Assembly (NCBI RefSeq): GCF_964355755.1
Contig: NC_092672.1
Span: 31,192,437-31,256,436, forward strand
Source of the DNA: Antedon mediterranea
Lineage: Eukaryota > Animalia > Echinodermata
Length of the DNA: 64,000 bases
Direction: 5' to 3'
Of this stretch, positions 8,979 through 46,642 are shown piece by piece. A program made the position numbers and the translations under genes. The notes beneath the pieces were generated by a model. That model did not search any database, was not told the DNA's origin, and saw only the letters and a list, made by a program, of their open reading frames with translations. Within the stretch, counting starts at the first letter, position 1, and every line of letters starts with the position of its first letter.

Positions 8979-18217
<9,239 letters not shown>

Positions 18218-19283: not shown

Positions 19284-22200
19284 ATGGCAAACTTCTTTGA
19301 AACTAGAATGTTTAAACCAATTGCTTGTATCGCTCTGTTGATGTTAACCCAGTGTTATGGGTATGTGGAATGCGATATAAAGCCACCAAAAACGTCGTCT
19401 TCTCAATTCTACGGTCACCCTAACACAGCAATGTCAAACGAGATTGGCATATTGAATGCGACCCAATTAGAGTGTATGCAGCTTTGTCGAAAGGACGCAC
19501 GTTGCCTAGCTTTTACGTACGCTGCTGATACGCAAGAGTGCGCGACGTTTGATCAGGATAGCCTCACTGGACCGGAACACATGGAGACGGTATCTGGTGT
19601 CTGGTTCTATGACATGCAGGGAAAGAATTTAACCCAGGTAAGAATGGAAGGATTGGTCTCCACTCTATAGAGACGCAACGCAAGAAAGCACAACGTAAGC
19701 GTGGTTCCCACTAGAACGCAACGCAACGTAACGCAGCGACGTATCGACGCAAAGTGATGTATTGCGTAATCGCAAGTGGGAACCGAGAGGAAGAAACATT
19801 GCTGTAAAAATCGCAGGTTTGATTTCACGCAGGTGGAGGCAAACACAATGATTGGAAGGGCATTTTCTTACGTTGCGTAGATTGCGTTACTTTGCGTCGC
19901 AAGTGAGAACCAAGCTTAGGTGATTTGACCAATCTCAAGCGCTGGGTTACAATAGTCGCTTGTCATTGGTCAAACTTACTTGAGTTGCGCGCGTTTACGT
20001 TCTTGCGTTTCGTCCTAGTGGGAACAAAGCTTTATAAACATTACAATTAAATTGATTATTATCATTTTTCATAGATATTTTGTCGTTTTTTATTATCTTG
20101 ATGGTTTGGCTCACCTTTCTACTATGCCAATAAATATTATATATAACCTAATAATATTTATTGGCATATAAAGGTGCGTCAACCCACACCAAGATATCTA
20201 AGTGTTATGTTTAAGATATTTTAATAGAAAGTAATGATGTTTTACTGATTCATTTCCAAGTTTTAGTAAAAATGTTTTACAGACCGTTTTACCACCACGT
20301 TTGTATTGATTCAATTAGTTCAGATCTGTCATTATTTAATATAACATACGGGTTATTCGATAGGATGAGACTACTGTATTGGTAAAGTCAACTATAATTA
20401 TAAGTTATATAAGCACGGTCGACCATGCATGGAAATCAATATCTGAAATAACGATTCATGGTTAGATTAAATTTGAATTATTAATTAAATACAGTATATC
20501 TTTGTACAAAATGTCCGAATCATTTATAGTTACAATACTACGACACGTCTGTTTCGAAAATACGTTCGTAAAGCTATGTCTACACTATCAAACTAGTTTG
20601 ACAAAAAAGTGTGATGTGCCCAAATGTGGTAGTGATATATGCCCAAATATAGTAGTGATATAACATCATCATATCCATATATGGGCACATCACATGGTTT
20701 TTGTCACGTAAATACAAGTTTGATAGTGTAGACAGAGCTTAAGGACGTAAGCGCAAAGTAAGTAATTTGACCAATCACAAGCGATGGATTATTTGAACTA
20801 TCACTTGTCATTGGTCAACTCGCTTACGTTGCATAGTATTTCTAATGGGAACCACGCTTTTTAAACTTAAATGTTATAATGATTTTACAGAGTTACTTTA
20901 AAACTTGCCAAACAAGCAACGGATGTCGAAACGGCGGCTCGTGCATCAACGATTGCTCTGATCTGGGATACAGTTGCGCATGCCGAAAACAATTTTATGG
21001 ACGATTTTGTGAAAATGGTATGTGCATTATTTTTACTGACAAGCCAAATCTATGCTGCTCTACAAAATAAGGGGTATGATCAGCGTGAGCGATGCATGAT
21101 GGGACGGAATTGAGAGAAATAGCGGCCTCACAGTTTTTATTATATATATTAGGCGTGGTAACCGTAAAAATATTAACACTAATACTAACTCTAACATTGG
21201 CATAAGTATTGCATTCAATAATGTTAACAGAATCAAAAACAAATTATATGAAATTAAGAATTTTTTAATTAATTGTAAAATTGACATATTTGGTATTGCC
21301 GAAACTTTTCTTAAATCAAATGAGTCTATAAGGATAAATGGTTTTAAATGGTATGGTAAAAATAGAGTAGGAAAAGGGGGAGGAGGTATTGGCCTACTTG
21401 TCTCAGATAAAGTAACTGTTTTAGATGATAATCTTTATGATTCGTTTTGTGATGACATTGAGAGATGTTGGATTCGTGTTAAAATTTGTGATAAATTGCT
21501 TAATATTGCTGTGGTATATTTTCCAGTAGAGGGGTCTAATCCTGACCTTGCTGATGAACTATATAACCAACTACTCTCTGAAATAATTCAAATTGAAAAT
21601 GAAGTTGAAAATTGTGACCCACTTATCTTAATTGTAGGCGATTTTAATGGCAGAATAGGTAATAATGTAAGTAATGGTGATCCCATAATTAATTCTAATG
21701 GGGAGCGTTTGATAAATTTTAGTATTGACACAGGGCTAAATATTCTAAACTGCTCACAAAAATGTTTTGGAAAGATAACTTGGTTTAGACACCCACACTC
21801 AAGCTGCATTGATTATGTGCTTTCCTCGTGTAGTGTCGATAAATTTATACATAAAATGGTCATCGATGAGGAAAGAAACTACCACATGGGTAGTGACCAT
21901 AATGTGCTACTAGCCTATCTTAAATTTGAATATAATACTAATGTAAAAAATTCGAATGATAATAAACGACAAGTTTGGAATATTAAAAGCGATCAAGACT
22001 GGTCTGCTTACAAAAATTCAATTATTGATAAATTTGACAACATTTGGTTTAATAATAACCTTGAGGATATTAGTGATATAAATTATGGTTGGGAAAAATG
22101 GAAAGATACTCTTATTTCAGTTACTAATAATACAATTGGCTTTAAGGATGTTAAAAGCAAAAGTAAACAATGGTGGGATAAGACAATAGACACTGCCATT

Positions 22201-25200
22201 CAAGAACGTAAACGTGCTTGTAAGGAGCATCGTGCATGGTCTAAACATAATAGGGCAGATCTTGATAAGGGGGATGCTTTATGGAAGGATTATAAAATGA
22301 AAAAAACTCAAGCGAAAAATGTAATAAAAAATAAAATGATGCAATTGAAAGTTGACAAAAGTGTTGCCATAGCGAAAGCAGGTGGTCAGAGTTCTAAAGA
22401 CTTTTGGAACGAATTAAGGGGGCCTAAGAAGGTAATTGTTCCTTCTAACCTAAAAATTCCCGACTCTACACAAGTTACCTCAGACAAACAGGTTATGGCT
22501 AACTTGATTAAAATTTATTGGAGTAACTTGGGTAATCAAACTGGTGTCAATACTTATAATGATATAGTTATCAATAGTCATGTTTCTGATATTAGGGAAA
22601 ATTATATAAATTATGTTAATGATGATCCACAAAAAGTACTGGATGATATAAGAATTTCATTTGAAGATGTTAAAAGTTCAATACTTCGTTCTAAAAACAA
22701 TAAAGCACCTGGTGTTGATGGCATCACTAACGAATTGTTAAAGAACGGAGGTGACTGCCTTATTAGGGCACTTACATATCTTTTTAACTATTTTGTTAAA
22801 TCAGAGAAAATTCCCACCGAGTGGAATAAAGGGATCATTATACCTATCCATAAAAAAGGTAGCAAGAACGATTTAAATAACTATAGAGGTATCACATTAT
22901 CATCATGTGTTGCTAAAATTTTCAATCGTATTATTTGTGATCGTATCTCAGAATTTCTTGAGAGTAATAGTATTCTTACGGAAATCCAGGGAGGCTTTAG
23001 GAAAAATCATAGATGTGAGGACCACATATTTACACTTAAAAGCATATTGGCTACGCGAAATGCGGAAAATAAGTTAACATACTTAGCCTTCCTGGATTTC
23101 CGTAAGGCTTTTGACACGGTTTGGCGTAATGGCCTTTTGTCAATAGCATGGAATACTGGTATCCGTGGTAAAGTCTGGAAAATTATTGATAAACTTTATA
23201 CAAACGTCAAATGTAATGTTAAGTTTGGTGATATTGTAACTGATTATTTTGATGTCGATGAAGGGGTTAAGCAAGGCTGCGTATTATCACCGACCTTATT
23301 CTGTATTTTTATAAATGAACTCTCCAAAATGTTATATAATGAAAATGTCGGATGTCATACTTTAGGCACAAAAATTAGCTGTCTTTTTTGGGCTGACGAC
23401 GTTGTCTTGATTGCTAAAGATGAAAATGATCTGGAGAAAATGTTATCTATCGCTGGAATTTTCTCCAAAAAATGGAAACTTAACTTTAATTATGACAAAT
23501 CAAATGTTGTGGTTGTTGGTAAACGTACTAATAAAACTAAACAATGGCCTCTTGTAAACCACTTCATCAAAGAAGTAGATTGTTACAAATACTTGGGAGT
23601 GAATATTTCAAGAAACTTCTCCGAAAGTATACATGTTAATGATGTAGTTAGAAAAGGAAATAGATTAATTGGATATATCAAGTCCATTTTTAATGAGCAA
23701 GAAGATTTTAATAGGATTTATTTTGGTAATATCTTGTGGAAAACTATAGCACTACCTTCAATTAACTATGCATGTGCAATATCAGCTTATAGTGCCAGTG
23801 ATTACAAAAAAATCGAAAACATTCAGCTACAAATGGCTAAAACACTACTAAAAGCACCGAGGAACACGCCATCATTGGCTCTGTTGGGTGACTTAGGATG
23901 GGATAGCATTGAAAATACCCATAATGAAATAAAAATTAAATATTTTGACAGGCTTATCAACTACTTAGAAGCCCATCGTTGGCCAAAGCTGCTGTTGCAT
24001 GCATTATTTACCTTGCATGACAATAATGTTAATATAAAATGGCGATGGTTAAACTCAATTAAAAGTATTCTGAATAATACTGGATTTAATCATGTATTTT
24101 CAAATAACATACCTATAGATTCAGCATGGTTTAAATCTTTTAAGTGTGTTAATCGTCAAATGTATGAATTGGATTGGTTTAATAAAAGCTGTACCAAACC
24201 ATCATTATCACTTTATGTTAAATTTAAAAAAATGCCTGAGTTAGAAAATTATCTTACTGTTAAAACTGATTTTCATGGTGCTCAATTGAAATTTAAGGCA
24301 AGGTCAAATACTCTTCAACTTGAAAGTAGATTAAGTAAATGGGATATGAATAATACTGGTAATTGTATGTTATGTAAGGATGAACCTGAAGATTTATATC
24401 ATTTTATGTTAAATTGTAAAGTACTACAAGAAGTGCGAATTTCAGAATTTGAATGCTTGGAACAAAACCTTAATGATTCTGGTCTTTCAGATCTATGGAA
24501 TTCACTCCAGTTAAATAATTCAGAGGTTATCTTAATGATTATACTTGGTGGTGATTGTTCTGTTCTCATTCCAACAATGTCGATTAATATGGTAAACAAA
24601 GCCCATGACATTCTTGATAAATTCTGCAAATCATATCTTAAGAAAGCATGGGCCTTTAGACAACGTATAAAGTCTAACATTATCGAATGATTTTTTTTAA
24701 TTTTTTTATTGTATGTAAGTTGGTTTAGTTATCTTAATTCTGTTTACAGTCATCAAATAATTCACCACAGCTGAAATAATTTAATCTATGCTTTCCTGTT
24801 TATTGATGTCCCTAATTTGGGTTCCTATTGTTCCTTATTATTTTTGCTGGTAGACACTGTGTATCAAGAATGTGTATATCTTAACATAGATTCTAAGTAC
24901 TGTATATTCCTTTGTTCATATACTAATTGATATGCTAATTTAGTGTCCAAGCTTATGTATGTGGGTTGCATTTAATTGGTTTTAGTATTACAGTTTATTT
25001 TTAATTTGGTTTTATCGAACTTCCGTTTTATCTGAGTATTATCTGTTTTAATCTAGTTTATCTTTATTTTTATACTCATATTTTTTATATTGTATGTTTA
25101 ATTGTTTTAAGGATGCACCATTATTATGTGTGCCGCTGTTCAAAAAGCGTTTTCCAAATAAATTATTATTATTATTATTATTATTACTGGTGGCCGACCC

Positions 25201-28200
25201 CTGGCTGTGTCCGTCCTACGCTATATTGCTCCCAATTCCTTCCCATCGTGCATCGCTCACGCTATTTGCGATTTTTTTTTAAAATACTGAAAAGTTTGTT
25301 CTTTTTTATTCAGAGTTTATCCACGAATATGTTTTTAAAACAAACATTGTTGGGATATCTTCAAGAAGCAATACGGCATTCACCTACAAGAACAATCACT
25401 ATCTGGTGATCGCCGGATTGTAAGTATTTTTGGGCGAAACGAGAAAAAATGACGATGTAAACTATGATATAACGACGGAAACACGATGATGACGAAACAA
25501 AGCATAGTGGGAAGGATTTGGGAGCAAACGTCACGACGCGTACGTGATGTGTTGTTTATACGTTCGCGTCGTGACGTTTGCTCCCAAACCCTTCCGATCA
25601 TGCATTGTGCAATGACGTTCCTCGCGAAATCAAGCTATAATTTGCGATAAACCTTATCGACGAAGATGAAATTTACAATGACGATCCGACACAATACGTA
25701 ATCGACGACAAAATAGACGTCATCGACGACACATCCGGGTAGTGACAATAATGACGGCAAACGAAGATGATTACGACGAAAGTGAATCATCTTCAGCGAA
25801 TAAAACGACATTGATGCCAATAGTAAATCAAAGCCTGTTTTCCACTAGGCGGCGAAATTATTCGACCGAATCCAATGTTTCGCAGACAAAAAATAGCGCT
25901 ACTGCAAGAGCAATAGCTGCATTGTTTGCGAAACTTTTCGCTTCGCAAAAGTTAAGTAGAAATAATTCTACAAACGATGGAAAAATGAATGCGCATTCGT
26001 ATAAACTGACGCTTTCGATTCGCACGAACAAATTCGCCTAGCTGAAACAAAGTTTTAAAAATGCGTTGTCATACAAAATCCAAGGAACTGGAATCAACAA
26101 AATTGGGTCAGACAACTTGATAAAAATTGCCAAACCATGACGTCATAGGTCCTATAGGTTGTCGGAAATCAAAAGGTCCCTAAAGCTTGGTTCCCACTAG
26201 AACGTAACGCAAGGACGTAAACGCAACGCAAGCGTTTTAACCAATGACAAGCGAAGTTATAGACAGTTAGCAATCACAAGCGAATAAGCCATCGCTTGTG
26301 ATTGGTCAATTCACTTGCGTTGCGTTACGTCCTTGTTTTGCGTCGCTAGTGGGAATCACGCTTAAAGCTTCGTTCCCACTAGCGACGCAACATAACGCAA
26401 TCTACGCAACGTAAGCAAATGCCCTTCTAATAATTGTGTTTGCCTCCGCATGCGTGAAATCAAACCTGCGATGTCTGGCAGCACTGTTGCGTCGTCGGTT
26501 CCCACTTGTGATTACGCAATACAGCACTTTGCGTCAATACGGCGTTGCGTTGCAGTAGGAACCAAGCTTAAGATTGGTTCCCACTAGCGACGCAACGCAA
26601 CGCAACCTACGCAACGTAAGAAAATACTCTTCCAATAATTGTGTTTTCCTCCGTCTGCGTGAAATCAAACCTGCGATATTTGCAGCACTGTTGCATCGTT
26701 GGTTCCCACAATCGTCAATACGTCGTTGCGTTGCGTTCTAGTAGAAACCACGCTTTAATGACTACTTTAAGTGTGGTTCCCACTAGCGACGCAACACAAG
26801 GACGTAACGCAACGCAAGTGAATTGACCAATCACAAGCGATGGCTTATTCGCTTGTGATTGCTAACTGTCTATAACTTCGCTTGTCATTGGTTAAAACGT
26901 CCTTGCGTTACGTTCTAGTGAGAATAACAACAACGTGTTTTACGTCACGTCGAGTAATTGAAATGTTGCAGTTCTTTGTCTCATTGTTCTGATCTGGTTT
27001 TCATAAATGTTCGTGTTCAGTGAAGAAATCTATACCACCGTATGGTGAAATACAATGACGACACTGACGTCATTCAGCGATGAACAACGACAACATATCG
27101 ATATCGGATGACAATGACGCTCAAGTCGAGGTGTTGATACGCAATAAATACGGTTGACCAATAGATGACGACTAAAAAGTGGGTTTATCAACGGCGACGA
27201 TGACTAGTCTAATCGACAACGTCTTGGTCCTACGGCACTTTGAAATGTTCGGTTATGAGACCGGTATAGGCCCTACGTCTTCTTCCTATTAGCCTGATCT
27301 AATTATCATCAGTATATTTTCAGCGAAGGCGTGTCCGAATCCCTAACAAAGGTTTACAAATACAGTAACACTGATGACGTTTATGAATATCACCAAGAAC
27401 TGACTGGAACAAGTGACGTAGGAAAACTTGAGAAGTTTATAATTAATGGACAACTTTACATATTTGCTGCCAACTATAAGTCATATGGACTTACAGACTA
27501 CATCAGAAATTCTTACCTTTACAAGTTCAACACGCAAACAGGTAATATAAATCGGTATCCGGATGGTAAAGCCTGGTTCCCACTAGCGACGCAACCTACG
27601 CAACGTAAGAAAATGCCCTTCCAATAATTGTGTTTTCCCCCTGCGTGAAATAAAACCTGCGATTTTGGCAGTACTGTTGCGTCGTCGGTTCCCACTTGTG
27701 ATTACACAATACATCACTTTACGTCGATACCTCGTTGCGTTCTAGTGGGAACCACCCTTTAGGGATGTTTATGGTCATTAATTCTAATTATCCAATTGAA
27801 TTTCCGATTATCCTGTACCTTATCAAAGATATATTGATACACTAATTATATTCACATTTTTGGATGATTAATGAAGCCATTTTCCCTGACTGTGTACTCT
27901 TGTTGGCATGGCATTATACTTTGTACTCGTTGTATTGAGAATATGGCATAATGTTATACTTTTATTTATTTATTTACTTTTATTAGGTCTATTTGAACAA
28001 CATCAAACATTTTCAACACAAGCTGGAAATGACGCGTCATATTTGGAATTCGATTCAAACCATTACCTACTTGTTGTTAATCACTACGGCACAGCAGTAG
28101 TATATGAGGGAAACCAGGCCAAAATATAATTTTATACCCCCAGGGCAGAAGTATTCCAGGCCCGAATGGAATGTCATATCCCCAGGGCATATTTCATATT

Positions 28201-31200
28201 TCTATTGTTTAATTTCCAGGTATTGTATTAATAATTAGTGAAAGGTCATTCTTTGTACCAGACCGGAAAGGAATGTCATATCCCCAGGGTATATATTATA
28301 TTTTCTATTGTTTAATTTCCTGTTATTGTATTATTAATTAGTGTAAGGTCATTCTTTGTTAGAGAAATGGTTTGTTATTTTGGCGGGGTTTCTGTTTTGG
28401 CCTGTGCTATATTCGTAAAGAATTTGTATTTTTAAAAATTATTGAAAGGTCATTCTTTGTTAGGGAAGGGGGTTTGTTATTTTGGCGGGCTTTTCGTTTT
28501 GGCCTGGGCTATAATTGTAGTTGGTGATGAATTTGTATTTTAAATATATTAGTGAAGGTAGTTCTTTGTTTGAGGATTGCTATTGTTATTTTTAGGCGGT
28601 TTGACCATTGCATAGGTCACTTTTGTTTAGTATATCCTAATTTCTTTTGTTCATTGTTCTTTTTGTTTGGTACAATAGTTTTGTTTTTGATATTTTAGAG
28701 CCGTTTCTTTTTAGACATTGTAAGAAAGGGGACTGCTTTTTGTGACCTTTCCAGTTGCTTTGTCTATTTTAACGTAGAGTTACAGTATTTCGCTATGTCT
28801 GGAAGTATAGATTTTTCGCAAGGTAGATGTGTAGATACAGTTATAATTATTAGCGATGATGAGGAGACTGCTGTTACAGGTAGCGATATCGGTGATCGGT
28901 ACATGCGGACCAATGAGGGTGTACCCACCGGTGTTGATGAAGGAGATGAGAGGGGTAGCCGGGCTACAAGTTGTATATTTACGTACGTAGATGAGGTAGA
29001 GAGAGAATTTTTATTGAAATTGGAATATTTAGCCAGATAAGCGTTTGTTTCTCAAGTGTTAAACAAGTGTTGGATGTTAAGTCAAGCGGCTTGTTATGGT
29101 TGCGAATTTGATAGGCCTGGTCAAAAAGATCATGACTTCTGTTTAATGAAATCTCCAGAAGAACAGATTGACTATTTTTATCGGGAGGTTCTGGATAAAG
29201 AGTATGTTACAGACGATACCGTGTACAGTGAGCTGAATAAGTACGAGGAATATTCATTACCACGGTACAGACATTTTGTTTACTTTCTCGTCAGTACCTT
29301 GACTAATTCAGAGAACCTGTATAAGTTATTGTGTGAGGATATCTAAAACGTGTTTCGCACGTGCCACGGAAAAAACGATTGACCGGAAAACAAACAATTA
29401 ACAATACTTTAATCCGCACGCGTTGTAAGGAGACAATTGACAGGTAAAACAATTAATATCACTTTAGGCTAATTACTGTAAAGAGCTACGTAAACTGTAA
29501 ATATAATATAGGACCTGATTCAAGCGAAGTTAAGACCTGTTTGTATGCAGTCGCCGAGCACAGTTATTCATTTTAGACTTACAGCGATGATTTGTATCTC
29601 GCTTTCTCTCTCTCCATTCACCGTCATTGTATTTTCTAAAGCTTAGCCAGATTAAAGCCTAAAGATCACTTTCTATATTTATGAAAAACTGTCAGCAGGA
29701 TTTTTAGAATGTACTTTAAAGATCAATACAGCGATTCCAAAAGAAAACGCACAGAATACAAGAAATCTTCAAAAAAAGTTCCACATGGAAGAATTACGTG
29801 AAAGTACAGAAACAGATTCTAAACGGAGCGTATTTAAAATCAAAACAACAGTTGCTATCCCCCGATAGGTTATTGGTGCAAAAGATATTAAGAGAAAATT
29901 TAGATTGTGATTACCTTCAACTTCTTGATAAAGGAGCAGCCGATACATTGTTTAATAAATGTGAGGAAGAGATTGACTGTTTTACCGGTGATCTTGCAAA
30001 GGTGAAAGTATACGGAAAGTGGTTTAATATTCCTAGAAGACAGGTTGGTTCCATTATATTTGTTCTTCATCGTGGTTTTGTATTATTATTAATGATGTAC
30101 TAGTATTTCACTTCCTTTTTTATTTACCGTTGAGTAGTTCGGTGCTATTTACTCGCTTACTGTAAATATTTTTTGTGCGTATTCATTTTCATCTTACCAG
30201 ATAAGTTTCATTAATTACTTTCTTTGTATGATTTCCCCTCTGCAGGTTTCTTTCGGCGATTCGGGCTTAACTTACACATTTTCAGGTAATACAGTACCAT
30301 ATTTACCGTGGCCTTCATTCCTGGAAGATCTCCGCGATCTTTTAAAATCGGTTACAGGACATTACTTCAACTTTGTTTTGGTCAACCGGTAAATATTCTT
30401 GTTTTTTTGTTTTTTTTGATTGATTAAAAAGGTCCAGCGTTTACCTCTAAAACTATACGCATGAACAATGATATCAGTGGTCAAACTGAGTAATTTTTTA
30501 CAATTTGCGGGATAAGATTGTTCTAATTGTATTATGCAAGTGTTTATTTTACTTTACACCCCCGATGGATAATAGGTTTTCTTTGGTCTCATGTTATTGT
30601 ATTTTGTCATTACTCAGATATGCTACTGGTAGTGATTACATTGGTGAACACAAAGATGATGAGAAAGACATGAATCACTTTAGTCCAATCGCCTCTGTAT
30701 CATTGAGGCAAACACGTATGTTTAGATTTCGGCATGGTGATGCACGGGGTCAGAGTCCCAAAAGAATCATTAAGCCAGTAACTGTTGATCTTAAACACGG
30801 TACATTATTAATGATGAATTATCCCACTAATGAGTACTGATACCATTCACTACCTAAACAGCAGTCCATCAAGCTACCAAGAACAAATCTCACGTTTAGA
30901 GATATTAAAATATGAGAGAAATTTCACGCAAACATTACAGTCTTTAATAGTTGTCGCAGATCTCAAGAATATTTACTGTTCATGATCTGTTTAGTATAGT
31001 AGTAAATCATTTTTGTGATGCTATTCCTACAAATAGCTGTATTTATTGAAATTCACTTAGATCTATACCTAATTCCATTGATCGCTAATATTCATGTGAT
31101 TGTTTCTCATTGTGTGCATAAAAATTAAATAATCTCTTAAAAGTAAATTGTATTGTATTTCTAATTGTTATAAATACATGTGTAACAGTTTCTTATGTTT

Positions 31201-34200
31201 TTAACAAGTGTGTAAGTTTTTCTTTAAAGCGTTTTAACCGTTTAGTTAGTAATTTCAAGAGAAACAGGTACTTGAAACGGATAAATGATGTCGTAACGTG
31301 GGAAACGGACTGGTAGATTAAAAGAAACGTTATAGGCCTAATAACACTAATAATAACAAACATATATTTCGTACATAATCGATAAGTTATCTAAATATGT
31401 GTGATTAATATTATTACAATAAAGACCATGTAGATCTACAGTAGTTTGACTGTAAGTGGTATTGTAAATAAATTTTGAATTCAACGGTGAGAAATAACAG
31501 ATGTCTGCGTATTATTTAATATTACTTTTATCATAATTGCAAACACAGGTCGATCATAATTTGAAGGCAGGAAGACGTTTTGGTTGCCAATTGTATTTTC
31601 TTTACACTTAACACATTTTAACAGAAAAACAGGAAAGCTAGACATTCAACCGGAGCCCAAAAATTGAAATTTGTTTACAAGCAGGTTATTTGCATTAGTT
31701 ATTATAAGGCCTACTTTTTTTTCTACATGTTTATCTTTCGACTATTTAAAAAAATTTTTTTTTTTATGAACCTTCCGCTGTTTCGTTAGCAATTTTACAG
31801 GCCTGTGTCTTCGCTCTGTAGGCTTAACCTTATAACGACATATATTTTAACGATTCTTTGTAAATGCTTTCTTATTGATGGTTACCTATAGCTCTCTCAC
31901 ATCCCTTAATCTAGCACCATTTTATGAAAGATTCCTCAGTAAGGGGTTTATTACTGGCGCTAGGTATCATCGACAGGGAATATTAGACAAAACATGACGT
32001 CAATATTTTTAAAAGGTTTTCTCATTCAAGAACAGCTGACGTCAATGAAGAATACGTTACAACACGATAACTACCGGACAGCAGCAAAAAAAACATCAAC
32101 CAATCACAAAGCTGAGCTACTAGTTAAATAATAAATAAATGAAACAAAGACAAAAGAAAAGGAAATACACCAAACAAATCATTTTCGTCTCGAAGTTATA
32201 TTAACGTAAATTTTTCCTTCACAAAATCACAGGAGACGCGTTTTTAACGTTTCCAATTGTAAAGCAGTTTAAAATTGCGTCGCATTTAGTACTGCTAGTA
32301 CCTTACTGTAAAATAGTATCTACCGATATATATTTTGCTGGTCACTCATCATTTTTATTACATCACATTATTCAACTCATCAGGTGTAATATCTTTACAC
32401 AAATCCTTTATATCTTTACTTTTATTTCTTACCAGCTCATAACAAACATGAATATTACTCTAAAGGATTTATACTCAATGTATGATAAACCCCCCTTTTT
32501 TAAAGTCTGCATAGCGGCACGAGAAAACAATTGATAATGGGGATAAAAAGTTTGTCTTACATTGTTATACCGTAACCTGTGTTTTTCTTTGTTTACACCA
32601 TCTCATTGTTTATAATTATGTATGTTAATGTCGATAGTGTTTTCGCTAGTACAGTTTATTACTTGTTTATACTCGTAAAGTTTGCAGGCCTCCATGTTGT
32701 TGGTATATTTTGTAAAAATTGTATTTAGGCCTATGTTTACTTTTTAAAAATCGTTTTATTTGCATTTTATCTCCTCCTGGTTAAAATGAGTGTGATGAAA
32801 AAAGTTAACAAGTATAACCACTAAAACGGTTCATTACCTGTAGGAAATCATCAATATTGTAACATGCGGTAAACAATACAAATTAGTTTCACAAATTATT
32901 TAAACAATAACACTAACAAATTATTAGAATTTAAAAAAATGTGTACAGATTTTATTTCGATAAAAAAGTGTACAAAGATAACTTTACAAAAAGTGTACAG
33001 AATAAAATAACAACAAAAAAAGTCCACACATAAGCTAATTCTTATAAATGTGTACAGTGTACATTGGCTACAGACATTCTTAAAACAGACGTGTACAGAT
33101 TGTAGTTCGAAAAAAAGTGTACAAAAATAACTTTACAAAAAAATGTACAGAATAAATTAACAACAACAAAATCACACATTAAACTAATTCTTATAAAGGT
33201 GTACAGTGTACATTGGCCACAGACATTCTTAAAACGAGGTGTACACAGCTTTTATTTAAAAAAAAAAGTATACACAAATAATTTTACAAAAAGTGTATAG
33301 AATAAATTTACAAAAAAAGATCACACATTAAACTAATGCTTATAAAAGTGTACATGTCGATGTGTACATGTAACGTGGCATTACCATTAAGAAACAAATA
33401 CAAACCAAACACTTAACAGCTAAAACAGCATAGCGATCGTTTTCGTACGAAAAACAATACCTCCAGCAGGTATATCAACTTTAGTATTTTACGTATAGGG
33501 CATACACGTGACAAATACACACACCCTCTTGAATTGTAGGTACAGGCCTTTTACCGTTCGTAATTCAAACTGTTCGGAAAATTGAAGTTAATATTCTGAG
33601 ATTAGGCCTATAGCCTATGATTGCATTCTGCCTTCCCTCTCAGGAGCTTAGACTTTGTCAACGGTCTAAAAGAGCTGTAATGCAGGATGCGAAACATAAA
33701 CGTTTATTAATAAACAGTATATTATAACGATAAAGAAACGAATGTACGATACACCAATATAACAGTACAATAACTGATTAACTGAAGACTTGAAGTCTAC
33801 TGTATTCCTACAATCATTCAAGTAGACATTGTTTGCTGAGTGTATGATACTTTCTCCAAAGAGAATTCGAACGATGTGTTTCTACGGTTATCAGAACGGG
33901 TCAATAGTAATATAAAAAAAAACAAAAAAAAACAAAAAAAAACAAAAAAAAACGAGCAGCCTACTAACTTCCAAAAAATCAATACCTAAATAAGCTGAAC
34001 CTAACCCACTAATTAATCTCTTCCATACATCAAAATCGGTCGAAAATGATCTGAACATTGAAAAGTGGACACGGTCGTCTGTTCTTCTTTTCTGTTTCCA
34101 CGGCTGGCTTGTGACATCCTCGATGGTGATAAAGCCATGCGGTCTACACACTTATGAAGACCACATCGCATAACATGTTCAGGGAACTTATTTTTCAACT

Positions 34201-37200
34201 CTCTGATACAATGTTGAAATACAAGTGGACTGGAAACCATTTAGGAATAGGGTTTTCTAATAATAAAAGTTGTGTAAAACTTTAGTTATGGTCAAGGGGA
34301 TTGGTCAAGACTTGAAGTAAATGGTCGAGACTTGGAGTAAATGGTCGAGACCGGGGGGAAAATGGTCAAGACAGGGAGAAAAATTAATGTACACCATTTT
34401 ATAAGTTTATATTCACTTATTGTGTTAAATTTCATTTATGATTAAACCTGTATACGTATTCAATAATAAAAAATTAATTTTCTTACACTTAATATCATGA
34501 ATAACATATGTTTAGTAGTTAAGGTATTATATTATTTCTCTGTATACTGACCTCACAAATATAGATAAAGAGAGACTGTAACTAAATGTTTATTGATTAT
34601 TAGGGTTACAGTGAGAGTTCTATGCAAACATTAAAAGGCCAATTAACGAGCCACCCAACTTAATTAAGTACCGGTACCTAGCAAATGCGCTCAAACTCAA
34701 TAAGGGTTACAACTCTACAAAAGAGGACATTTTATTTTTAAACAGGGTTAAACATAAAAAGGTCAATTACTTAAAAAGGGTTGTGTCAATTGACACTTGA
34801 ACTTTACCTCTATACAAGGACGAATGGACAGTGACAATTAACCATTAAACTCTGGTCACAAAAGCATGGGAGTTTCAATTTTCGACTTCGTCGAAATTTG
34901 AGAGCCCCCCAATAAAACGGTTGACCAGAGTTTAATGGTAAATTGTCACTGTCCATTCGTCCTTGTATAGAGGTAAAGTTCAAGTGTCAATTGACACAAC
35001 CCTTTTTAAGTAATTGACCTTTTTATGTTTAACCCTGTTTAAAAATAAAATGTCCTCTTTTGTAGAGTTGTAACCCTTATTGAGTTTGAGCGCATTTGCT
35101 AGGTACCGGTACTTAATTAAGTTGGGTGGCTCGTTAATTGGCCTTTTAATGTTTGCATAGAACTCTCACTGTAACCCTAATAATCAATAAACATTTAGTT
35201 ACAGTCTCTCTTTATCTATATTTGTGAGGTCAGTATACAGAGAAATAATATAATACCTTAACTACTAAACATATGTTATTCATGATATTAAGTGTAAGAA
35301 AATTAATTTTTTATTATTGAATACGTATACAGGTTTAATCATAAATGAAATTTAACACAATAAGTGAATATAAACTTATAAAATGGTGTACATTAATTTT
35401 TCTCCCTGTCTTGACCATTTTCCCCCCGGTCTCGACCATTTACTCCAAGTCTCGACCATTTACTTCAAGTCTTGACCAATCCCCTTGACCATAACTAAAA
35501 TTTTACCCAACTTTTATTAATGGCCAGTCTCTCTTTATCTATATGTGTGACGTCAGTATACAGAGAAATAATATATTACCTTAACCACTAAAGATATGCT
35601 ATTCATGATATTAAGCGTAAGAAAGTTATTTTTTTTTTTTTATTATTATTGAATACGTATACAGGTTTATTCATAAATGAATATTAACACAATAATTGAC
35701 TATAAACTTATAAAATGGTGTACAATGATTTTTCTCTCGGTTTTGACCATTTCCCCCCCCCCCCCCCCCCCGGTTTTTTTACCATTTACTCCAAGTCTTG
35801 ACCAATTCCTCTTGACCATAACTAAAGTTTTACACAACTTTTATTATTAGAAAACCCTATTCCTAAATGGTTTCCAGTCCACTTGTATTTCAACATTGTA
35901 TCAGAGAGTTGAAAAATAAGTTCCCTGAACATGTTATGCGATGTGGTCTTCATAAGTGTGTAGACCGCATGGCTTTATCACCATCGAGGATGTCACAAGC
36001 CGGCCGTGGAAACAGAAAAGAAGAACAGACGACCGTGTCCACTTTTCAATGTTCAGATCATTTTCGACCGATTTTGATGTATGGAAGAGATTAATTAGTG
36101 GGTTAGGTTCAGCTTATTTAGGTATTGATTTTTTGGAAGTTAGTAGGCTGCTCGTTTTTTTTTGTTTTTTTTTTGTTTTTTTTGGTTTTTTTTTATATTA
36201 CTATTGACCCGTTCTGATAACCGTAGAAACACATCGTTCGAATTCTCTTTGGAGAAAGTATCATACACTCAGCAAACAATGTCTACTTGAATGATTGTAG
36301 GAATACAGTAGACTTCAAGTCTTCAGTTAATCAGTTATTGTACTGTTATATTGGTGTATCGTACATTCGTTTCTTTATCGTTATAATATACTGTTTATTA
36401 ATAAACGTTTATGTTTCGCATCCTGCATTACAGCTCTTTTAGACCGTTGACAAAGTCTAAGCTCCTGAGAGGGAAGGCAGAATGCAATCATAGGCTATAG
36501 GCCTAATCTCAGAATATTAACTTCAATTTTCCGAACAGTTTGAATTACGAACGGTAAAAGGCCTGTACCTACAATTCAAGAGGGTGTGTGTATTTGTCAC
36601 GTGTATGCCCTATACGTAAAATACTAAAGTTGATATACCTGCTGGAGGTATTGTTTTTCGTACGAAAACGATCGCTATGCTGTTTTAGCTGTTAAGTGTT
36701 TGGTTTGTATTTGTTTCTTAATGGTAATGCCACGTTACATGTACACATCGACATGTACACTTTTATAAGCATTAGTTTAATGTGTGATCTTTTTTTGTAA
36801 ATTTATTCTATACACTTTTTGTAAAATTATTTGTGTATACTTTTTTTTTAAATAAAAGCTGTGTACACCTCGTTTTAAGAATGTCTGTGGCCAATGTACA
36901 CTGTACACCTTTATAAGAATTAGTTTAATGTGTGATTTTGTTGTTGTTAATTTATTCTGTACATTTTTTTGTAAAGTTATTTTTGTACACTTTTTTTCGA
37001 ACTACAATCTGTACACGTCTGTTTTAAGAATGTCTGTAGCCAATGTACACTGTACACATTTATAAGAATTAGCTTATGTGTGGACTTTTTTTGTTGTTAT
37101 TTTATTCTGTACACTTTTTGTAAAGTTATCTTTGTACACTTTTTTATCGAAATAAAATCTGTACACATTTTTTTAAATTCTAATAATTTGTTAGTGTTAT

Positions 37201-40200
37201 TGTTTAAATAATTTGTGAAACTAATTTGTATTGTTTACCGCATGTTACAATATTGATGATTTCCTACAGGTAATGAACCGTTTTAGTGGTTATACTTGTT
37301 AACTTTTTTCATCACACTCATTTTAACCAGGAGGAGATAAAATGCAAATAAAACGATTTTTAAAAAGTAAACATAGGCCTAAATACAATTTTTACAAAAT
37401 ATACCAACAACATGGAGGCCTGCAAACTTTACGAGTATAAACAAGTAATAAACTGTACTAGCGAAAACACTATCGACATTAACATACATAATTATAAACA
37501 ATGAGATGGTGTAAACAAAGAAAAACACAGGTTACGGTATAACAATGTAAGACAAACTTTTTATCCCCATTATCAATTGTTTTCTCGTGCCGCTATGCAG
37601 ACTTTAAAAAAGGGGGGTTTATCATACATTGAGTATAAATCCTTTAGAGTAATATTCATGTTTGTTATGAGCTGGTAAGAAATAAAAGTAAAGATATAAA
37701 GGATTTGTGTAAAGATATTACACCTGATGAGTTGAATAATGTGATGTAATAAAAATGATGAGTGACCAGCAAAATATATATCGGTAGATACTATTTTACA
37801 GTAAGGTACTAGCAGTACTAAATGCGACGCAATTTTAAACTGCTTTACAATTGGAAACGTTAAAAACGCGTCTCCTGTGATTTTGTGAAGGAAAAATTTA
37901 CGTTAATATAACTTCGAGACGAAAATGATTTGTTTGGTGTATTTCCTTTTCTTTTGTCTTTGTTTCATTTATTTATTATTTAACTAGTAGCTCAGCTTTG
38001 TGATTGGTTGATGTTTTTTTTGCTGCTGTCCGGTAGTTATCGTGTTGTAACGTATTCTTCATTGACGTCAGCTGTTCTTGAATGAGAAAACCTTTTAAAA
38101 ATATTGACGTCATGTTTTGTCTAATATTCCCTGTCGATGATACCTAGCGCCAGTAATAAACCCCTTACTGAGGAATCTTTCATAAAATGGTGCTAGATTA
38201 AGGGATGTGAGAGAGCTATAGGTAACCATCAATAAGAAAGCATTTACAAAGAATCGTTAAAATATATGTCGTTATAAGGTTAAGCCTACAGAGCGAAGAC
38301 ACAGGCCTGTAAAATTGCTAACGAAACAGCGGAAGGTTCATAAAAAAAAAATTTTTTTTAAATAGTCGAAAGATAAACATGTAGAAAAAAAAGTAGGCCT
38401 TATAATAACTAATGCAAATAACCTGCTTGTAAACAAATTTCAATTTTTGGGCTCCGGTTGAATGTCTAGCTTTCCTGTTTTTCTGTTAAAATGTGTTAAG
38501 TGTAAAGAAAATACAATTGGCAACCAAAACGTCTTCCTGCCTTCAAATTATGATCGACCTGTGTTTGCAATTATGATAAAAGTAATATTAAATAATACGC
38601 AGACATCTGTTATTTCTCACCGTTGAATTCAAAATTTATTTACAATACCACTTACAGTCAAACTACTGTAGATCTACATGGTCTTTATTGTAATAATATT
38701 AATCACACATATTTAGATAACTTATCGATTATGTACGAAATATATGTTTGTTATTATTAGTGTTATTAGGCCTATAACGTTTCTTTTAATCTACCAGTCC
38801 GTTTCCCACGTTACGACATCATTTATCCGTTTCAAGTACCTGTTTCTCTTGAAATTACTAACTAAACGGTTAAAACGCTTTAAAGAAAAACTTACACACT
38901 TGTTAAAAACATAAGAAACTGTTACACATGTATTTATAACAATTAGAAATACAATACAATTTACTTTTAAGAGATTATTTAATTTTTATGCACACAATGA
39001 GAAACAATCACATGAATATTAGCGATCAATGGAATTAGGTATAGATCTAAGTGAATTTCAATAAATACAGCTATTTGTAGGAATAGCATCACAAAAATGA
39101 TTTACTACTATACTAAACAGATCATGAACAGTAAATATTCTTGAGATCTGCGACAACTATTAAAGACTGTAATGTTTGCGTGAAATTTCTCTCATATTTT
39201 AATATCTCTAAACGTGAGATTTGTTCTTGGTAGCTTGATGGACTGCTGTTTAGGTAGTGAATGGTATCAGTACTCATTAGTGGGATAATTCATCATTAAT
39301 AATGTACCGTGTTTAAGATCAACAGTTACTGGCTTAATGATTCTTTTGGGACTCTGACCCCGTGCATCACCATGCCGAAATCTAAACATACGTGTTTGCC
39401 TCAATGATACAGAGGCGATTGGACTAAAGTGATTCATGTCTTTCTCATCATCTTTGTGTTCACCAATGTAATCACTACCAGTAGCATATCTGAGTAATGA
39501 CAAAATACAATAACATGAGACCAAAGAAAACCTATTATCCATCGGGGGTGTAAAGTAAAATAAACACTTGCATAATACAATTAGAACAATCTTATCCCGC
39601 AAATTGTAAAAAATTACTCAGTTTGACCACTGATATCATTGTTCATGCGTATAGTTTTAGAGGTAAACGCTGGACCTTTTTAATCAATCAAAAAAAACAA
39701 AAAAACAAGAATATTTACCGGTTGACCAAAACAAAGTTGAAGTAATGTCCTGTAACCGATTTTAAAAGATCGCGGAGATCTTCCAGGAATGAAGGCCACG
39801 GTAAATATGGTACTGTATTACCTGAAAATGTGTAAGTTAAGCCCGAATCGCCGAAAGAAACCTGCAGAGGGGAAATCATACAAAGAAAGTAATTAATGAA
39901 ACTTATCTGGTAAGATGAAAATGAATACGCACAAAAAATATTTACAGTAAGCGAGTAAATAGCACCGAACTACTCAACGGTAAATAAAAAAGGAAGTGAA
40001 ATACTAGTACATCATTAATAATAATACAAAACCACGATGAAGAACAAATATAATGGAACCAACCTGTCTTCTAGGAATATTAAACCACTTTCCGTATACT
40101 TTCACCTTTGCAAGATCACCGGTAAAACAGTCAATCTCTTCCTCACATTTATTAAACAATGTATCGGCTGCTCCTTTATCAAGAAGTTGAAGGTAATCAC

Positions 40201-43200
40201 AATCTAAATTTTCTCTTAATATCTTTTGCACCAATAACCTATCGGGGGATAGCAACTGTTGTTTTGATTTTAAATACGCTCCGTTTAGAATCTGTTTCTG
40301 TACTTTCACGTAATTCTTCCATGTGGAACTTTTTTTGAAGATTTCTTGTATTCTGTGCGTTTTCTTTTGGAATCGCTGTATTGATCTTTAAAGTACATTC
40401 TAAAAATCCTGCTGACAGTTTTTCATAAATATAGAAAGTGATCTTTAGGCTTTAATCTGGCTAAGCTTTAGAAAATACAATGACGGTGAATGGAGAGAGA
40501 GAAAGCGAGATACAAATCATCGCTGTAAGTCTAAAATGAATAACTGTGCTCGGCGACTGCATACAAACAGGTCTTAACTTCGCTTGAATCAGGTCCTATA
40601 TTATATTTACAGTTTACGTAGCTCTTTACAGTAATTAGCCTAAAGTGATATTAATTGTTTTACCTGTCAATTGTCTCCTTACAACGCGTGCGGATTAAAG
40701 TATTGTTAATTGTTTGTTTTCCGGTCAATCGTTTTTTCCGTGGCACGTGCGAAACACGTTTTAGATATCCTCACACAATAACTTATACAGGTTCTCTGAA
40801 TTAGTCAAGGTACTGACGAGAAAGTAAACAAAATGTCTATACCGTGGTAATGAATATTCCTCGTACTTATTCAGCTCACTGTACACGGTATCGTCTGTAA
40901 CATACTCTTTATCCAGAACCTCCCGATAAAAATAGTCAATCTGTTCTTCTGGAGATTTCATTAAACAGAAGTCATGATCTTTTTGACCAGGCCTATCAAA
41001 TTCGCAACCATAACAAGCCGCTTGACTTAACATCCAACACTTGTTTAACACTTGAGAAACAAACACTTATCTGGCTAAATATTCCAATTTCAATAAAAAT
41101 TCTCTCTCTACCTCATCTACGTACGTAAATATACAACTTGTAGCCCGGCTACCCCTCTCATCTCCTTCATCAACACCGGTGGGTACACCCTCATTGGTCC
41201 GCATGTACCGATCACCGATATCGCTACCTGTAACAGCAGTCTCCTCATCATCGCTAATGATTATAACTGTATCTACACATCTACCTTGCGAAAAATCTAT
41301 ACTTCCAGACATAGCGAAATACTGTAACTCTACGTTAAAATAGACAAAGCAACTGGAAAGGTCACAAAAAGCAGTCCCCTTTCTTACAATGTCTAAAAAG
41401 AAACGGCTCTAAAATATCAAAAACAAAACTATTGTACCAAACAAAAAGAACAATGAACAAAAGAAATTAGGATATACTAAACAAAAGTGACCTATGCAAT
41501 GGTCAAACCGCCTAAAAATAACAATAGCAATCCTCAAACAAAGAACTACCTTCACTAATATATTTAAAATACAAATTCATCACCAACTACAATTATAGCC
41601 CAGGCCAAAACGAAAAGCCCGCCAAAATAACAAACCCCCTTCCCTAACAAAGAATGACCTTTCAATAATTTTTAAAAATACAAATTCTTTACGAATATAG
41701 CACAGGCCAAAACAGAAACCCCGCCAAAATAACAAACCATTTCTCTAACAAAGAATGACCTTACACTAATTAATAATACAATAACAGGAAATTAAACAAT
41801 AGAAAACATAATATATACCCTGGGGATATGACATTCCTTTCCGGTCTGGTACAAAGAATGACCTTTCACTAATTATTAATACAATACCTGGAAATTAAAC
41901 AATAGAAATATGAAATATGCCCTGGGGATATGACATTCCATTCGGGCCTGGAATACTTCTGCCCTGGGGGTATAAAATTATATTTTGGCCTGGTTTCCCT
42001 CTACCTCTACTCACAGCTTACGGAGTTTACTCAGAGGTGTATAAATGGGATTTCGCCAGTAATCAATTCCTAGCAGACTATTCCCAGATACAAAGTCACG
42101 GCGCTTTCTCTGGAAAATTATTCGCAGTGGATGGTACGCTGTACGCGGTAATAGTAAACTACTACGACGACGCAGCAGGTTACCACGCGGTTAAATCTCA
42201 AGTTTGGAGAATAAAAGAAAAAAGTAAGTAAATTTAAAAAATGATAATCAATTCAGTGTATAATTGAAGTACGAAAATGTTTAGGTAATGTTACCAGACA
42301 ATGAGTGTGTATGCGTACGTATGCATATTTTAAGCGTGGTTCCCACTAGCGACGCAACGCAAGGACGTAACGCAACGCAAGTGAATTGACCAATCACAAG
42401 CGATGGCTTATTCGCCTGTGATTGCTAACTGTCTATAACTTCGCTTGTCATTGGTTAAAACGCTTGCGTTGCGTTTACGTCCTTGCGTTACGTTCCAGTG
42501 GGAACCAAGCTTAAGAGTTCAACTTATCTTCAGTGAGTGAGTCTGTGCCATCAACGATTAGGCCGAATGTTTACCGGAGCGCGATGTTTAAATAACACAT
42601 TTGAGGCGCATTTGATAATGTGATTGTAGGTAGGTCTACTTATTTTCCGCTTAAAACTCTTTGTGTCAAAGTTTGATGTGCCCAAATATGGTAGTGCTAT
42701 GTTTAAATATGGTACGGTGGTGATATGAATGACATCATCATGTCCATTATGGTCACATCACATTTAGACAGACAATGTAAACCGGGTTCAACACACGATT
42801 GTGACACAACACAAGGCGTCCTTCATAATCTATAATAGATATATTGCAATGTGCCGCTTACAAATAATTCGTAGCTGTTTTAAAGCTCTGTCTACACTAT
42901 CAAACTAGTTTAACCAAAAAAAGTGATTTACCTAAATATAGTAGTGATGTGCCCAAATATGGTAGTGATATGAGGTATGTGCACATCACATATTTTGTCA
43001 CATAATGTTTAAGAAGATTCAAACACTGAATGTGCTCATATGTCATCCAATTTTTAAAAACTTCTGGACTAAGTTCTGCAGCAAATATTTACTCTAAATT
43101 AACTTTCTGTCAATCAATTGAATTATAATGTGAAAGAAATAAAACTAAATAACTACGACAAATGATGTTGACATATTTTGCTTGATTCAGGGCGTTATAT

Positions 43201-45178: not shown

Positions 45179-46642
45179 TTTGTCGAAGATCTTGCGTAGT
45201 ATCCACGATGGTTGTGACGTCATAGCTTTTAGAGAAAATGGTCAACAACATTATTGCTTACAATGAAAGAATAATGCAATCATTGTTATCTCATTTGTCT
45301 GTTTTATTGTAAATTTTAAAGATGTATTGTCCCCCAAAAACATGAAAAATGAAGATTAATTAAATCAGACTTTGAAGTGTTATTTTGTAGTTTTAATAAA
45401 GTTATTCACATCCATAGAAAAAAAAACAAACAAAAAATAATGTTTTCACTTATAAAATGACAAAAAATGGTTAAATTCAAACAAAAATCCATTGGCTGGC
45501 AGCCAATTTGACAATTTTTGGCTTTAAATTACATTTTTTTCAGGTAAATACATTTTTTTTCTCGATCCAATTTTTTATCAAAGTGGATAACAATGGAATA
45601 TTCAACAACAATTTGTTTAAGAATTATTTTTTCAGGGGGACAATACATCAATATATTTCAGCGTGTTTGACCTTTGATGATTCTCACATTTTATAAAAAA
45701 TATGAAATGCATTCAAGAGGTGTGTGGCGCAGTGAGTTCGAATCCAACGCCTTGTCGCATTATCCAGACACTTTACTTACGTTTGCCTCTCTTCACCTAT
45801 GCGTAAAAATGGGTACCCAGTATTAAAGGTCAAACATACAATGTGGTGATTACTAGCTGGAGCATATATTAATATGGGAGTATGTTTCCATACGTTGATG
45901 ATCGAAGTAATAATGTGAAGCGTTTAAGCGTGGTTCCCACTAGGACGCAACGCAGCGACGTATTGACGCAAAGTGCTGTATTGCGTAATCACAAGTGGGA
46001 ACCGACGACGCAATAGTGCTGCAAACATCTCAGGTTTGATTTCACGCAGGCGGGGGCAAATACAATTATTAGAAGGGCATTTTCTTACGTTGCGTAGATT
46101 GCGTCGCTAGTGGGAACCAGGCTTTAGACTAGACTCGGATGCTTTGTGCATTAAGCACTATATAATATCCATGTATTATTATGATGTATTGTTGGTATAA
46201 TAAAAAAATTAAAACATTTTTATTAAACATAATCAAAATGTCCTTTAGAAGAATTTAAACACTTATAAATATGTATATTATTATTTCATAAATCTATTAT
46301 ATTTACATATTATTTTGACAACTAAAAACAGGAGTTGACTTAACCCCTGACCTCACTCAAGTTTGTGTGTTTTTAAAATTTATTCTATCATTTGATAAGA
46401 ACAACTTTCTCTTTGTGCATAGTCCATGTTGCTTAAATATTTTGAAATTATAGATTCTGTAAAAATGTTTTATTGCACTAATAAATAGTAAATGTTTTCT
46501 CGTTATTTATGAATTATTATGTTAAGTACAAATTAAACGGATTTTTAAAATTATAAGTGTTATAGATTGGTCATCAATTAAATATTTACATACTTACAAT
46601 CAAAATATTCTGTTACAACAGCAGAACCTAAAAACCAACAAA

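What the first reader, a model, noticed from the sequence alone, without database searches (positions are those of the whole stretch)
34859..34921. Centre of the palindrome is an imperfect hairpin resembling a hairpin-telomere or concatemer junction
Seen: pairing breaks at 34858/34922, yet the spacer contains a nested stem CAATTTTCGAC-TTC-GTCGAAATTTG, with weaker GGGAGTTTCAA/TTGAGAGCCCC pairing outside it, nearly on the same axis. Established: poxvirus, asfarvirus and parvovirus genomes end in incompletely paired hairpins that appear as imperfect palindromes in replicative dimers and occur in flip/flop orientations. Inference: the element may be the opened dimer of a linear molecule with one hairpin end and one protein-primed end. 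Alternatively, this stem triggered the polymerase turn-around.
Basis: partly seen in the sequence, partly recalled or inferred. Interest (0 to 1): 0.75.

Follow-up and report, generated by a model that had tools for sequence, protein, structure and literature searches.

The report
Hairpin turn-point of palindromic Polinton satellite
The 63 bases at the middle of a 13.9-kb mirror-image jumping element in an animal genome (likely a feather star) are predicted to fold into an imperfect DNA hairpin, which is likely the place where the polymerase of a virus-like Polinton transposon once turned back on its own strand and which would be the loop whenever a copied strand snaps back on itself, rather than a poxvirus-style telomere.

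Summary
The stem is real: 15 of 19 Watson-Crick pairs (34868-34908), 2 bases off the arm axis, matched by 4 of 5000 shuffles; on the minus strand its tip is a C-GAA-G triloop. It sits at the centre of a 13,916-bp whole-length palindrome (28096-42011) with AGTAG ends and a 6-bp target duplication, i.e. Polinton/Maverick integration marks, but no polymerase, integrase, capsid or resolvase gene. Each arm carries a broken ALKBH2-like gene with introns, 83-96% identical per exon to a many-copy family annotated in the crinoid Antedon mediterranea, where the 4 most alike protein pairs all share a contig, as expected if other copies are palindromes too. No second copy of the centre could be examined, so conservation and flip/flop are untested. 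Poxvirus-telomere features fail (57% A+T, no resolution-site motif, no resolvase). Best reading (0.5): a founder fold-back junction that now serves as the passive loop of a snap-back replication intermediate, which has one hairpin end and one protein-primed end without any cutting. A selected, resolved hairpin end remains possible (0.2).

The parts
28090..28095 (.). Left copy of 6-bp target-site duplication (CACAGC), inside an exon of a host EPTP-repeat gene
   Evidence: longest flank repeat over all end positions tried; host frames hit Pfam EPTP; frame is open across the empty site
28096..34858 (+). Left arm (6763 bp) of the whole-element palindrome; begins AGTAGT
28101..28105 (.). Tip bubble: 5 of 5 bases differ from the matching right-tip bases at 42002-42006
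28156..28592 (.). Subterminal tandem repeats (103-bp and 109-bp units)
28795..29346 (+). Small gene of unknown function with an invariant C-x-G-C...Q..H..C motif; in-frame stop at 29038-29040, present in both arms
   Evidence: no Pfam family and no fold match
29837..30915 (+). ALKBH2-like gene, three exons with GT-AG introns; in-frame stop at 30838-30840, present in both arms; no PC4 part
32941..33354 (.). 149-bp tandem repeat, 2.8 copies, rich in TGTACA
34261..34590 (.). Single, chimeric copy of the 327-bp unit in the left arm; crossover lies in 16 identical bases at 34281-34296
34859..34921 (.). 63-nt central spacer (the finding)
34868..34908 (.). Imperfect nested stem, 15 of 19 Watson-Crick pairs, axis 34888
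34880..34896 (-). Perfect 7-bp core with 3-nt loop (34887-34889); reads C-GAA-G on the minus strand
34922..42011 (-). Right arm, mirror image of the left with 8 substitutions, 2 one-base indels, the extra 327-bp unit and the tip bubble; ends CTACT
35520..35846 (.). Outer, 79%-identical second copy of the 327-bp unit, kept only in the right arm
42012..42017 (.). Right copy of the target-site duplication

Best explanation
The spacer is the centre of a 13.9-kb whole-length palindrome with Polinton-type ends and no replication genes of its own, and it is likely the frozen fold-back junction where a helper Polinton's strand-displacing polymerase once turned round at a pre-existing imperfect hairpin; it would now act as the passive loop each time a displaced strand snaps back. 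Steps: (1, shown) the element was inserted by an enzyme that leaves 6-bp duplications at AGTAG ends and encodes no enzyme for this itself. (2, inferred) A helper Polinton primes synthesis at an outer end with a terminal protein and displaces one full-length strand. (3, follows from the sequence) That strand can pair with itself over 6.7 kb, giving a half-length duplex closed by the 63-nt stem-loop: one hairpin end, one open end. The two strands give two complementary loops, flip and flop in form only. (4, inferred) Priming at the open end copies round the loop and restores the full-length duplex, so nothing has to be cut; mismatches in the snapped-back strand are repaired, which keeps the arms alike, except at the loop and the tip. 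(5, inferred) The full-length duplex is what the helper integrase inserts.
For: Ends and 6-bp duplication match the Maverick signature (PMC8097293 passages). 1 of 64 frames of the left arm and spacer hits Pfam, and it is AlkB. Arms differ by 8 substitutions in 6763 bp, yet share two premature stops, while the AlkB exons are 79-96% identical to the close relatives: arms are copied from or corrected against each other. In A. mediterranea 4 of 4 protein pairs at 99.5% or more share a contig (16 of 153 pairs do; 13 of 100000 label shuffles), one of the four in a more distant subfamily. A short spacer between inverted arms is the known scar of fold-back (PMC3907307 passages); strong hairpins cause template switches and self-complementary genomes in AAV (PMC7397707 passages; snap-back genomes with and without a loop, 10.1101/2020.10.20.346957 passages). 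Panhandle priming and homology restoring are the standing model for protein-primed replicons (PMC11886824 passages). The stem lies on the axis more than chance allows.
Against: One copy only: no other centre, no reads and no helper Polinton were seen, so steps 2, 4 and 5 are untested. A single fold-back gives identical tips, yet 5 adjacent tip bases differ; this needs a later priming slip (the right tip holds a 6-nt tandem repeat) or recombination with a second end. The C-GAA-G tip is the only one among 127 triloop stems of 5 or more pairs (2 among 402 of 4 or more) in the window without the mirrored arm, which fits a selected hairpin at least as well as an accident; this test was made after seeing the loop. 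Direct evidence for panhandles is still lacking even in adenovirus and PRD1. The left end is (AGT)2 but the right is AGTAGA, so the published end motif is met fully on one side only. The same-contig pairs could be isoforms, tandem copies or duplicated haplotypes; positions and orientations were not seen.
Confidence: 0.5

Rival explanations
1. The centre is a selected hairpin end: the element lives outside the chromosome as a half-length duplex with one closed hairpin and one protein-primed end, the loop is bound or cut by a helper or host protein, and the inserted form is the opened dimer.
For: On-axis stem beyond chance; C-GAA-G triloop on one strand, rare in the window; G:A-closed three-base loops cap the telomere hairpins of terminal-protein replicons in Streptomyces and resemble parvovirus rabbit ears (PMC4513846 passages); mismatched loops are needed for poxvirus packaging; shared stops in both arms are explained directly.
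Against: Not A+T-rich (57%), no resolution-site motif nearby (motif recalled), no resolvase or HUH nickase encoded. A resolved monomer carries one tip, so a family-wide tip bubble would not survive. Only 15 pairs in 63 nt. Earlier notes on similar elements elsewhere report spacer-less, gene-holding and deleted centres (unchecked leads).
Confidence: 0.2
2. The element is an ordinary two-ended Polinton derivative whose terminal repeats grew inward by repeated arm-to-arm conversion until only 63 bp were left; the stem is the decayed remnant of an older centre and does nothing.
For: Explains two different tips without extra steps. Polintons with about 2-kb terminal repeats that hold whole genes are described (10.1101/2025.02.07.637071 passages). 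Pairing falls off from the loop outward (7 perfect pairs, then 8 of 12), as decay could give.
Against: Does not explain the GNA-type tip or the abrupt step from 99.9% arm identity to an unpaired 9 x 13 loop with a better-paired core inside it.
Confidence: 0.2
3. The palindrome arose once in the chromosome after insertion, or is an assembly or amplification artefact, and the stem is the local fold-back site only.
For: No reads or second copy were seen; long palindromes are prone to mis-assembly and polishing can make arms look alike.
Against: Both ends join one host exon with a clean 6-bp duplication and an open frame across the empty site; arms carry distinct differences including a 327-bp deletion at a 16-bp direct repeat; same-contig near-identical gene pairs recur in the family.
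Confidence: 0.08

Closest known systems
Polinton/Maverick elements (polintoviruses, adintoviruses) and gene-depleted derivatives
   Same: Terminal inverted repeats, AGT-type ends, 6-bp target duplication, about 14 kb, subterminal repeats.
   Different: No polymerase, integrase, ATPase, protease or capsid gene; the repeats fill all but 63 bp; carries a host-derived gene with introns; tips differ at positions 6-10.
AAV snap-back genomes and self-complementary AAV vectors
   Same: Helper-dependent, self-complementary genome with a small central loop; hairpins promote the turn-around.
   Different: Outer ends are Polinton-type, presumably protein-primed, not T-shaped hairpins nicked by Rep; three times longer; inserted with a target duplication.
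Poxvirus flip/flop hairpin telomeres and concatemer junctions
   Same: An imperfect palindrome with unpaired bases between long perfect inverted repeats; the two strands would give two complementary hairpins.
   Different: 57% A+T against 84-93%; no resolution-site motif; no Holliday-junction resolvase; one such centre per element, the other ends open.
Fold-back inversions (inverted duplication with spacer)
   Same: Inverted arms round a single-copy spacer.
   Different: Here the product is a mobile, many-copy element; the spacer (63 bp) is shorter than the 766 bp to 70 kb of the human cases and is itself structured.
Streptomyces and parvovirus telomere hairpins closed by G:A sheared pairs
   Same: Three-base GNA-type loop on a linear replicon with terminal proteins.
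   Different: One hairpin at the centre, not a cluster in a 3' overhang; no binding protein known.

Membership tests
Polinton/Maverick (non-autonomous derivative) | 6-bp target-site duplication | tested here: met
   CACAGC on both sides
Polinton/Maverick (non-autonomous derivative) | (AGT)2//(ACT)2 or (AG)3//(CT)3 end motif | tested here: inconclusive
   Left end is (AGT)2; right end reads AGTAGA, 5 of 6 bases (motif)
Polinton/Maverick (non-autonomous derivative) | Terminal inverted repeats | tested here: met
Polinton/Maverick (non-autonomous derivative) | An autonomous Polinton with the same ends in the same genome | not testable with these tools
   No genome is held; end motifs found no related viral contig
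Polinton/Maverick (autonomous) | Protein-primed polymerase, integrase, ATPase, protease, capsid genes | tested here: not met
   1 of 64 frames hits Pfam, AlkB only
Poxvirus-type hairpin telomere / concatemer junction | Incompletely paired hairpin between long inverted repeats | tested here: met
Poxvirus-type hairpin telomere / concatemer junction | A+T-rich hairpin (84-93%) | tested here: not met
   57% against the values
Poxvirus-type hairpin telomere / concatemer junction | Conserved resolution site next to the hairpin | tested here: not met
   0 matches of the recalled motif in 34501-35280, 27 in the whole window; an unrelated site would be missed
Poxvirus-type hairpin telomere / concatemer junction | Holliday-junction resolvase | tested here: not met
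   None in the element; a helper or host enzyme is not excluded
Poxvirus-type hairpin telomere / concatemer junction | Flip and flop forms and monomer-length closed molecules | not testable with these tools
   No reads or further copies of the centre were available
Parvovirus rolling-hairpin terminus | HUH Rep/NS1 gene and a nick site beside a T- or Y-shaped hairpin | tested here: not met
   No HUH domain; the spacer folds as one unbranched stem
Snap-back defective genome | Self-complementary over nearly the whole length with functional outer ends | tested here: met
   (end function inferred from the target duplication)
Snap-back defective genome | Replicates outside the chromosome with a helper | not testable with these tools
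   No extrachromosomal data

The most novel reading that the evidence does not exclude
A Polinton satellite with a hybrid chromosome: one terminal-protein end and one selected, GNA-capped hairpin end, kept and perhaps packaged as a half-length duplex in flip and flop forms and opened to a dimer only for integration; the family also carries a captured DNA-repair gene (ALKBH2, in most relatives fused to two PC4 domains) suited to protecting its single-stranded intermediates.
Probability: 0.2. Interest if true: 0.85.

Novelty: new variant of a known kind. Interest (0 to 1): 0.5.

Why it matters
How Polintons/Mavericks copy their DNA has never been observed; whole-length palindromic passengers are a natural record of it. 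If the centre is a passive loop, the displaced-strand and panhandle model becomes testable by looking for half-length snap-back DNA in an animal. If it is a selected hairpin end, it would be a linear replicon that joins adenovirus-like and poxvirus-like ends, which I found in no paper searched. The cargo adds a second point: an intron-bearing host ALKBH2 has been amplified to about 18 annotated copies in a crinoid, most fused to PC4, apparently by this element family.

Tried and rejected
No genome is held and no read data could be had, so other copies of the centre were not seen. End motifs in viral contigs: 0 and 18 matches, the 18 without extension. Small-ORF scan of viral contigs gave 2 loci, phage tail regions with spurious 23-aa matches; the PC4-AlkB protein gave none. 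Word-index protein searches for the small ORF found nothing; the full HMMER scan found 37 weak relatives, 2 of the 10 looked up named, one from the crinoid Anneissia. Its model (pLDDT 86.7) matched nothing at E 0.001 in viral or PDB folds; the Atlas hit (0.75) is uninformative. Rejected: the stem arms as degenerate copies of the GGTC(A/G)A repeat unit (score 5.0, background 2-3 per kb); the spacer as a copy of other window sequence (best match 11 nt); an RNA family (0 Rfam matches); extra structure in the inner arm (z -0.44); a MITE or simple duplication behind the 327-bp difference. Not held: Kapitonov and Jurka 2006, Krupovic and Koonin 2015, the phi29 palindrome paper, Savilahti and Bamford 1993, the d(GCGAAGC) minihairpin paper, the folded-DNA review; what I say of them is recalled.

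Full report
OBSERVATION. The inner arms pair up to 34858/34922 and leave 63 nt. Inside is a perfect 7-bp stem with a 3-nt loop at 34880-34896 that extends, without gaps, to 15 of 19 Watson-Crick pairs at 34868-34908. Its axis is 34888, two bases from the arm axis. An equal score appears in 10 of 5000 dinucleotide shuffles of the spacer, in 4 of 5000 near the axis, in 0 of 320 arm windows and in 9 of 792 host windows, 2 of them on axis. By energy the fold is modest: z -2.1 and -2.4 for the two strands, and 21 of 792 host windows fold as well. The stem is real and its position is unlikely to be chance.

On the minus strand the tip reads C-GAA-G. Among triloop stems in the window without the mirrored arm, this is the only C-GNA-G among 127 stems of 5 or more pairs and one of 2 among 402 of 4 or more (counted after seeing the loop). 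That such loops are unusually stable in single-stranded DNA is recalled; that G:A-closed three-base loops cap the telomere hairpins of Streptomyces terminal-protein replicons and resemble parvovirus rabbit ears is in PMC4513846 (passages). The folding program gave both strands the same core energy, so it does not show this stability.

THE ELEMENT. The true ends are 28096 and 42011, flanked by a 6-bp duplication, inside an exon of a host EPTP-repeat gene whose frame is open across the empty site. Both ends begin AGTAG; the left is (AGT)2. Vertebrate Mavericks have (AGT)2 or (AG)3 ends and 6-bp duplications (PMC8097293 passages). The arms differ by 8 substitutions, 2 one-base indels, the 327-bp unit and 5 adjacent tip bases. 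The single left copy of the 327-bp unit matches the outer right copy up to position 36 and the inner copy from position 21, so it is a deletion between 16 identical bases. Of 64 frames of 38 aa or more in the left arm and spacer, one hits Pfam: AlkB. The element is therefore non-autonomous. No second copy lies in the window.

THE FAMILY. The last AlkB exon is 91-96% identical to ALKBH2-like models of the feather star Antedon mediterranea, 77-79% to more distant Antedon copies and 73% to Anneissia; that the window is from an Antedon crinoid is my inference. The close group is 16 proteins (18 accessions) on 7 contigs of 22-41 Mb. Two that I scanned carry two PC4 domains before AlkB, the presumed host gene does not, and this copy has no PC4 match. 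The mis-predicted tails of 2 models match non-coding element DNA 1.2-1.5 kb behind the gene, so they sit in related elements. Among 18 proteins (the 16 plus a more distant pair; I left out the two isoforms of the presumed host gene and the three non-Antedon proteins), 4 of 4 pairs at 99.5% or more share a contig, against 16 of 153 pairs overall (13 of 100000 label shuffles); one more protein has two accessions on one contig. This is what two-armed copies would give, but I saw neither positions nor orientations, and isoforms, tandem copies or duplicated haplotypes would look the same. The small upstream ORF has 37 weak relatives with an invariant C-x-G-C...Q..H..C motif and no known family or fold. 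Both genes have a premature stop that is present in both arms.

MECHANISM. A strand displaced from a whole-length palindrome pairs with itself and is then a half-length duplex with a hairpin at the spacer and an open outer end. Panhandle priming and homology restoring are the standing, still unproven model for adenovirus and PRD1 (PMC11886824 passages). For origin, a spacer between inverted arms is the scar of fold-back (PMC3907307 passages), hairpins cause template switches and self-complementary genomes in AAV vectors (PMC7397707 passages), and wild-type AAV makes helper-dependent snap-back genomes, for which those authors favour end joining over template switching (10.1101/2020.10.20.346957 passages). 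I put 0.5 on fold-back origin with a passive loop. Against it: one fold-back gives identical tips, and the tips differ; the right tip holds a 6-nt tandem repeat, which a priming slip could give (inference). A selected hairpin end gets 0.2 (for: axis, GNA loop, shared stops; against: 57% A+T, no resolution motif, no enzyme, two different tips). Inward growth of terminal repeats gets 0.2 (2-kb gene-holding repeats are known, 10.1101/2025.02.07.637071 passages). A local or technical origin gets under 0.1.

ON THE PROPOSED TEST. Conservation of the spacer is expected from common descent under every model; inversion of a spacer between long arms follows from recombination; and the 327-bp marker may be private. 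Flip/flop in poxviruses is defined on free hairpin ends cut from junctions by a resolvase next to a conserved site (PMC8956199 passages). The tests that separate the models are covariation across subfamilies, the tip state across copies and half-length molecules outside the chromosome. None could be run: no genome is held, no reads were available, and motif and protein scans of viral and metagenome contigs gave only chance matches.

NOVELTY. Searches for Polinton or Maverick with palindrome, hairpin, non-autonomous, AlkB or PC4 terms (search listings) showed no paper on whole-length palindromic Polintons or on such a centre. The nearest is short terminal palindromes in protist virophages and Polinton-like viruses, proposed to prime replication (10.64898/2026.07.28.741278 passages). 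PMC6431247, PMC8502044, PMC10924063 and PMC4938981 were read as passages only and add nothing on this point. Subscription papers, Repbase and Kapitonov and Jurka 2006 were not available, and I opened no supplements; those of PMC8097293 and of the two preprints could list such elements. Earlier notes of this scan report the same class in other genomes (12 findings in at least 3 genomes), among them spacer-less, gene-holding and centre-deleted forms; these are unchecked leads, and if right they argue against one universal hairpin end.

VERDICT. Observation confirmed; interpretation partly supported. New variant of a known kind; interest 0.5; the hybrid-end reading has probability 0.2 and would deserve 0.85.

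Noticed in passing
proteins P0002-P0004, P0011, P0013-P0024 (Antedon mediterranea models): A many-copy ALKBH2-like family on 7 contigs; the two scanned carry two PC4 domains fused before the AlkB domain, with open frames, while the presumed host gene has none. Looks like a captured repair gene amplified by this element family.
   Followed up: partly
window 28795-29346 and its mirror: Small gene with an invariant C-x-G-C...Q..H..C motif, 37 weak relatives (one named from the crinoid Anneissia), confident helical model, no family or fold match; likely a zinc-binding site.
   Followed up: partly
window 28101-28105 and 42002-42006: Tips differ at 5 adjacent bases; the right tip contains a 6-nt tandem repeat, as a slip during protein priming could leave.
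   Followed up: partly
window 27298-28095 and 42012-42231: The insertion interrupts an exon of a host EPTP/EAR-repeat gene whose frame is otherwise open; the insertion is probably young.
   Followed up: partly
window 21100-24690 +: Open frame of 1196 codons that looks like the endonuclease and reverse transcriptase of a non-LTR retrotransposon (motifs recalled, not scanned).
   Followed up: no
window 13371-14149, 19790-19918, 26180-26899, 42329-42515, 45315-46126: Several families of short inverted-repeat (MITE-like) elements in the host DNA on both sides.
   Followed up: no
window 34783-34796 and its mirror: Perfect 14-bp palindrome 62 bp from the spacer; GGTCA-type motifs cluster at the element's ends and next to the centre.
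   Followed up: partly
window 28096-42011: CpG observed/expected is 0.90 in the element against 0.69 in the host flanks.
   Followed up: no
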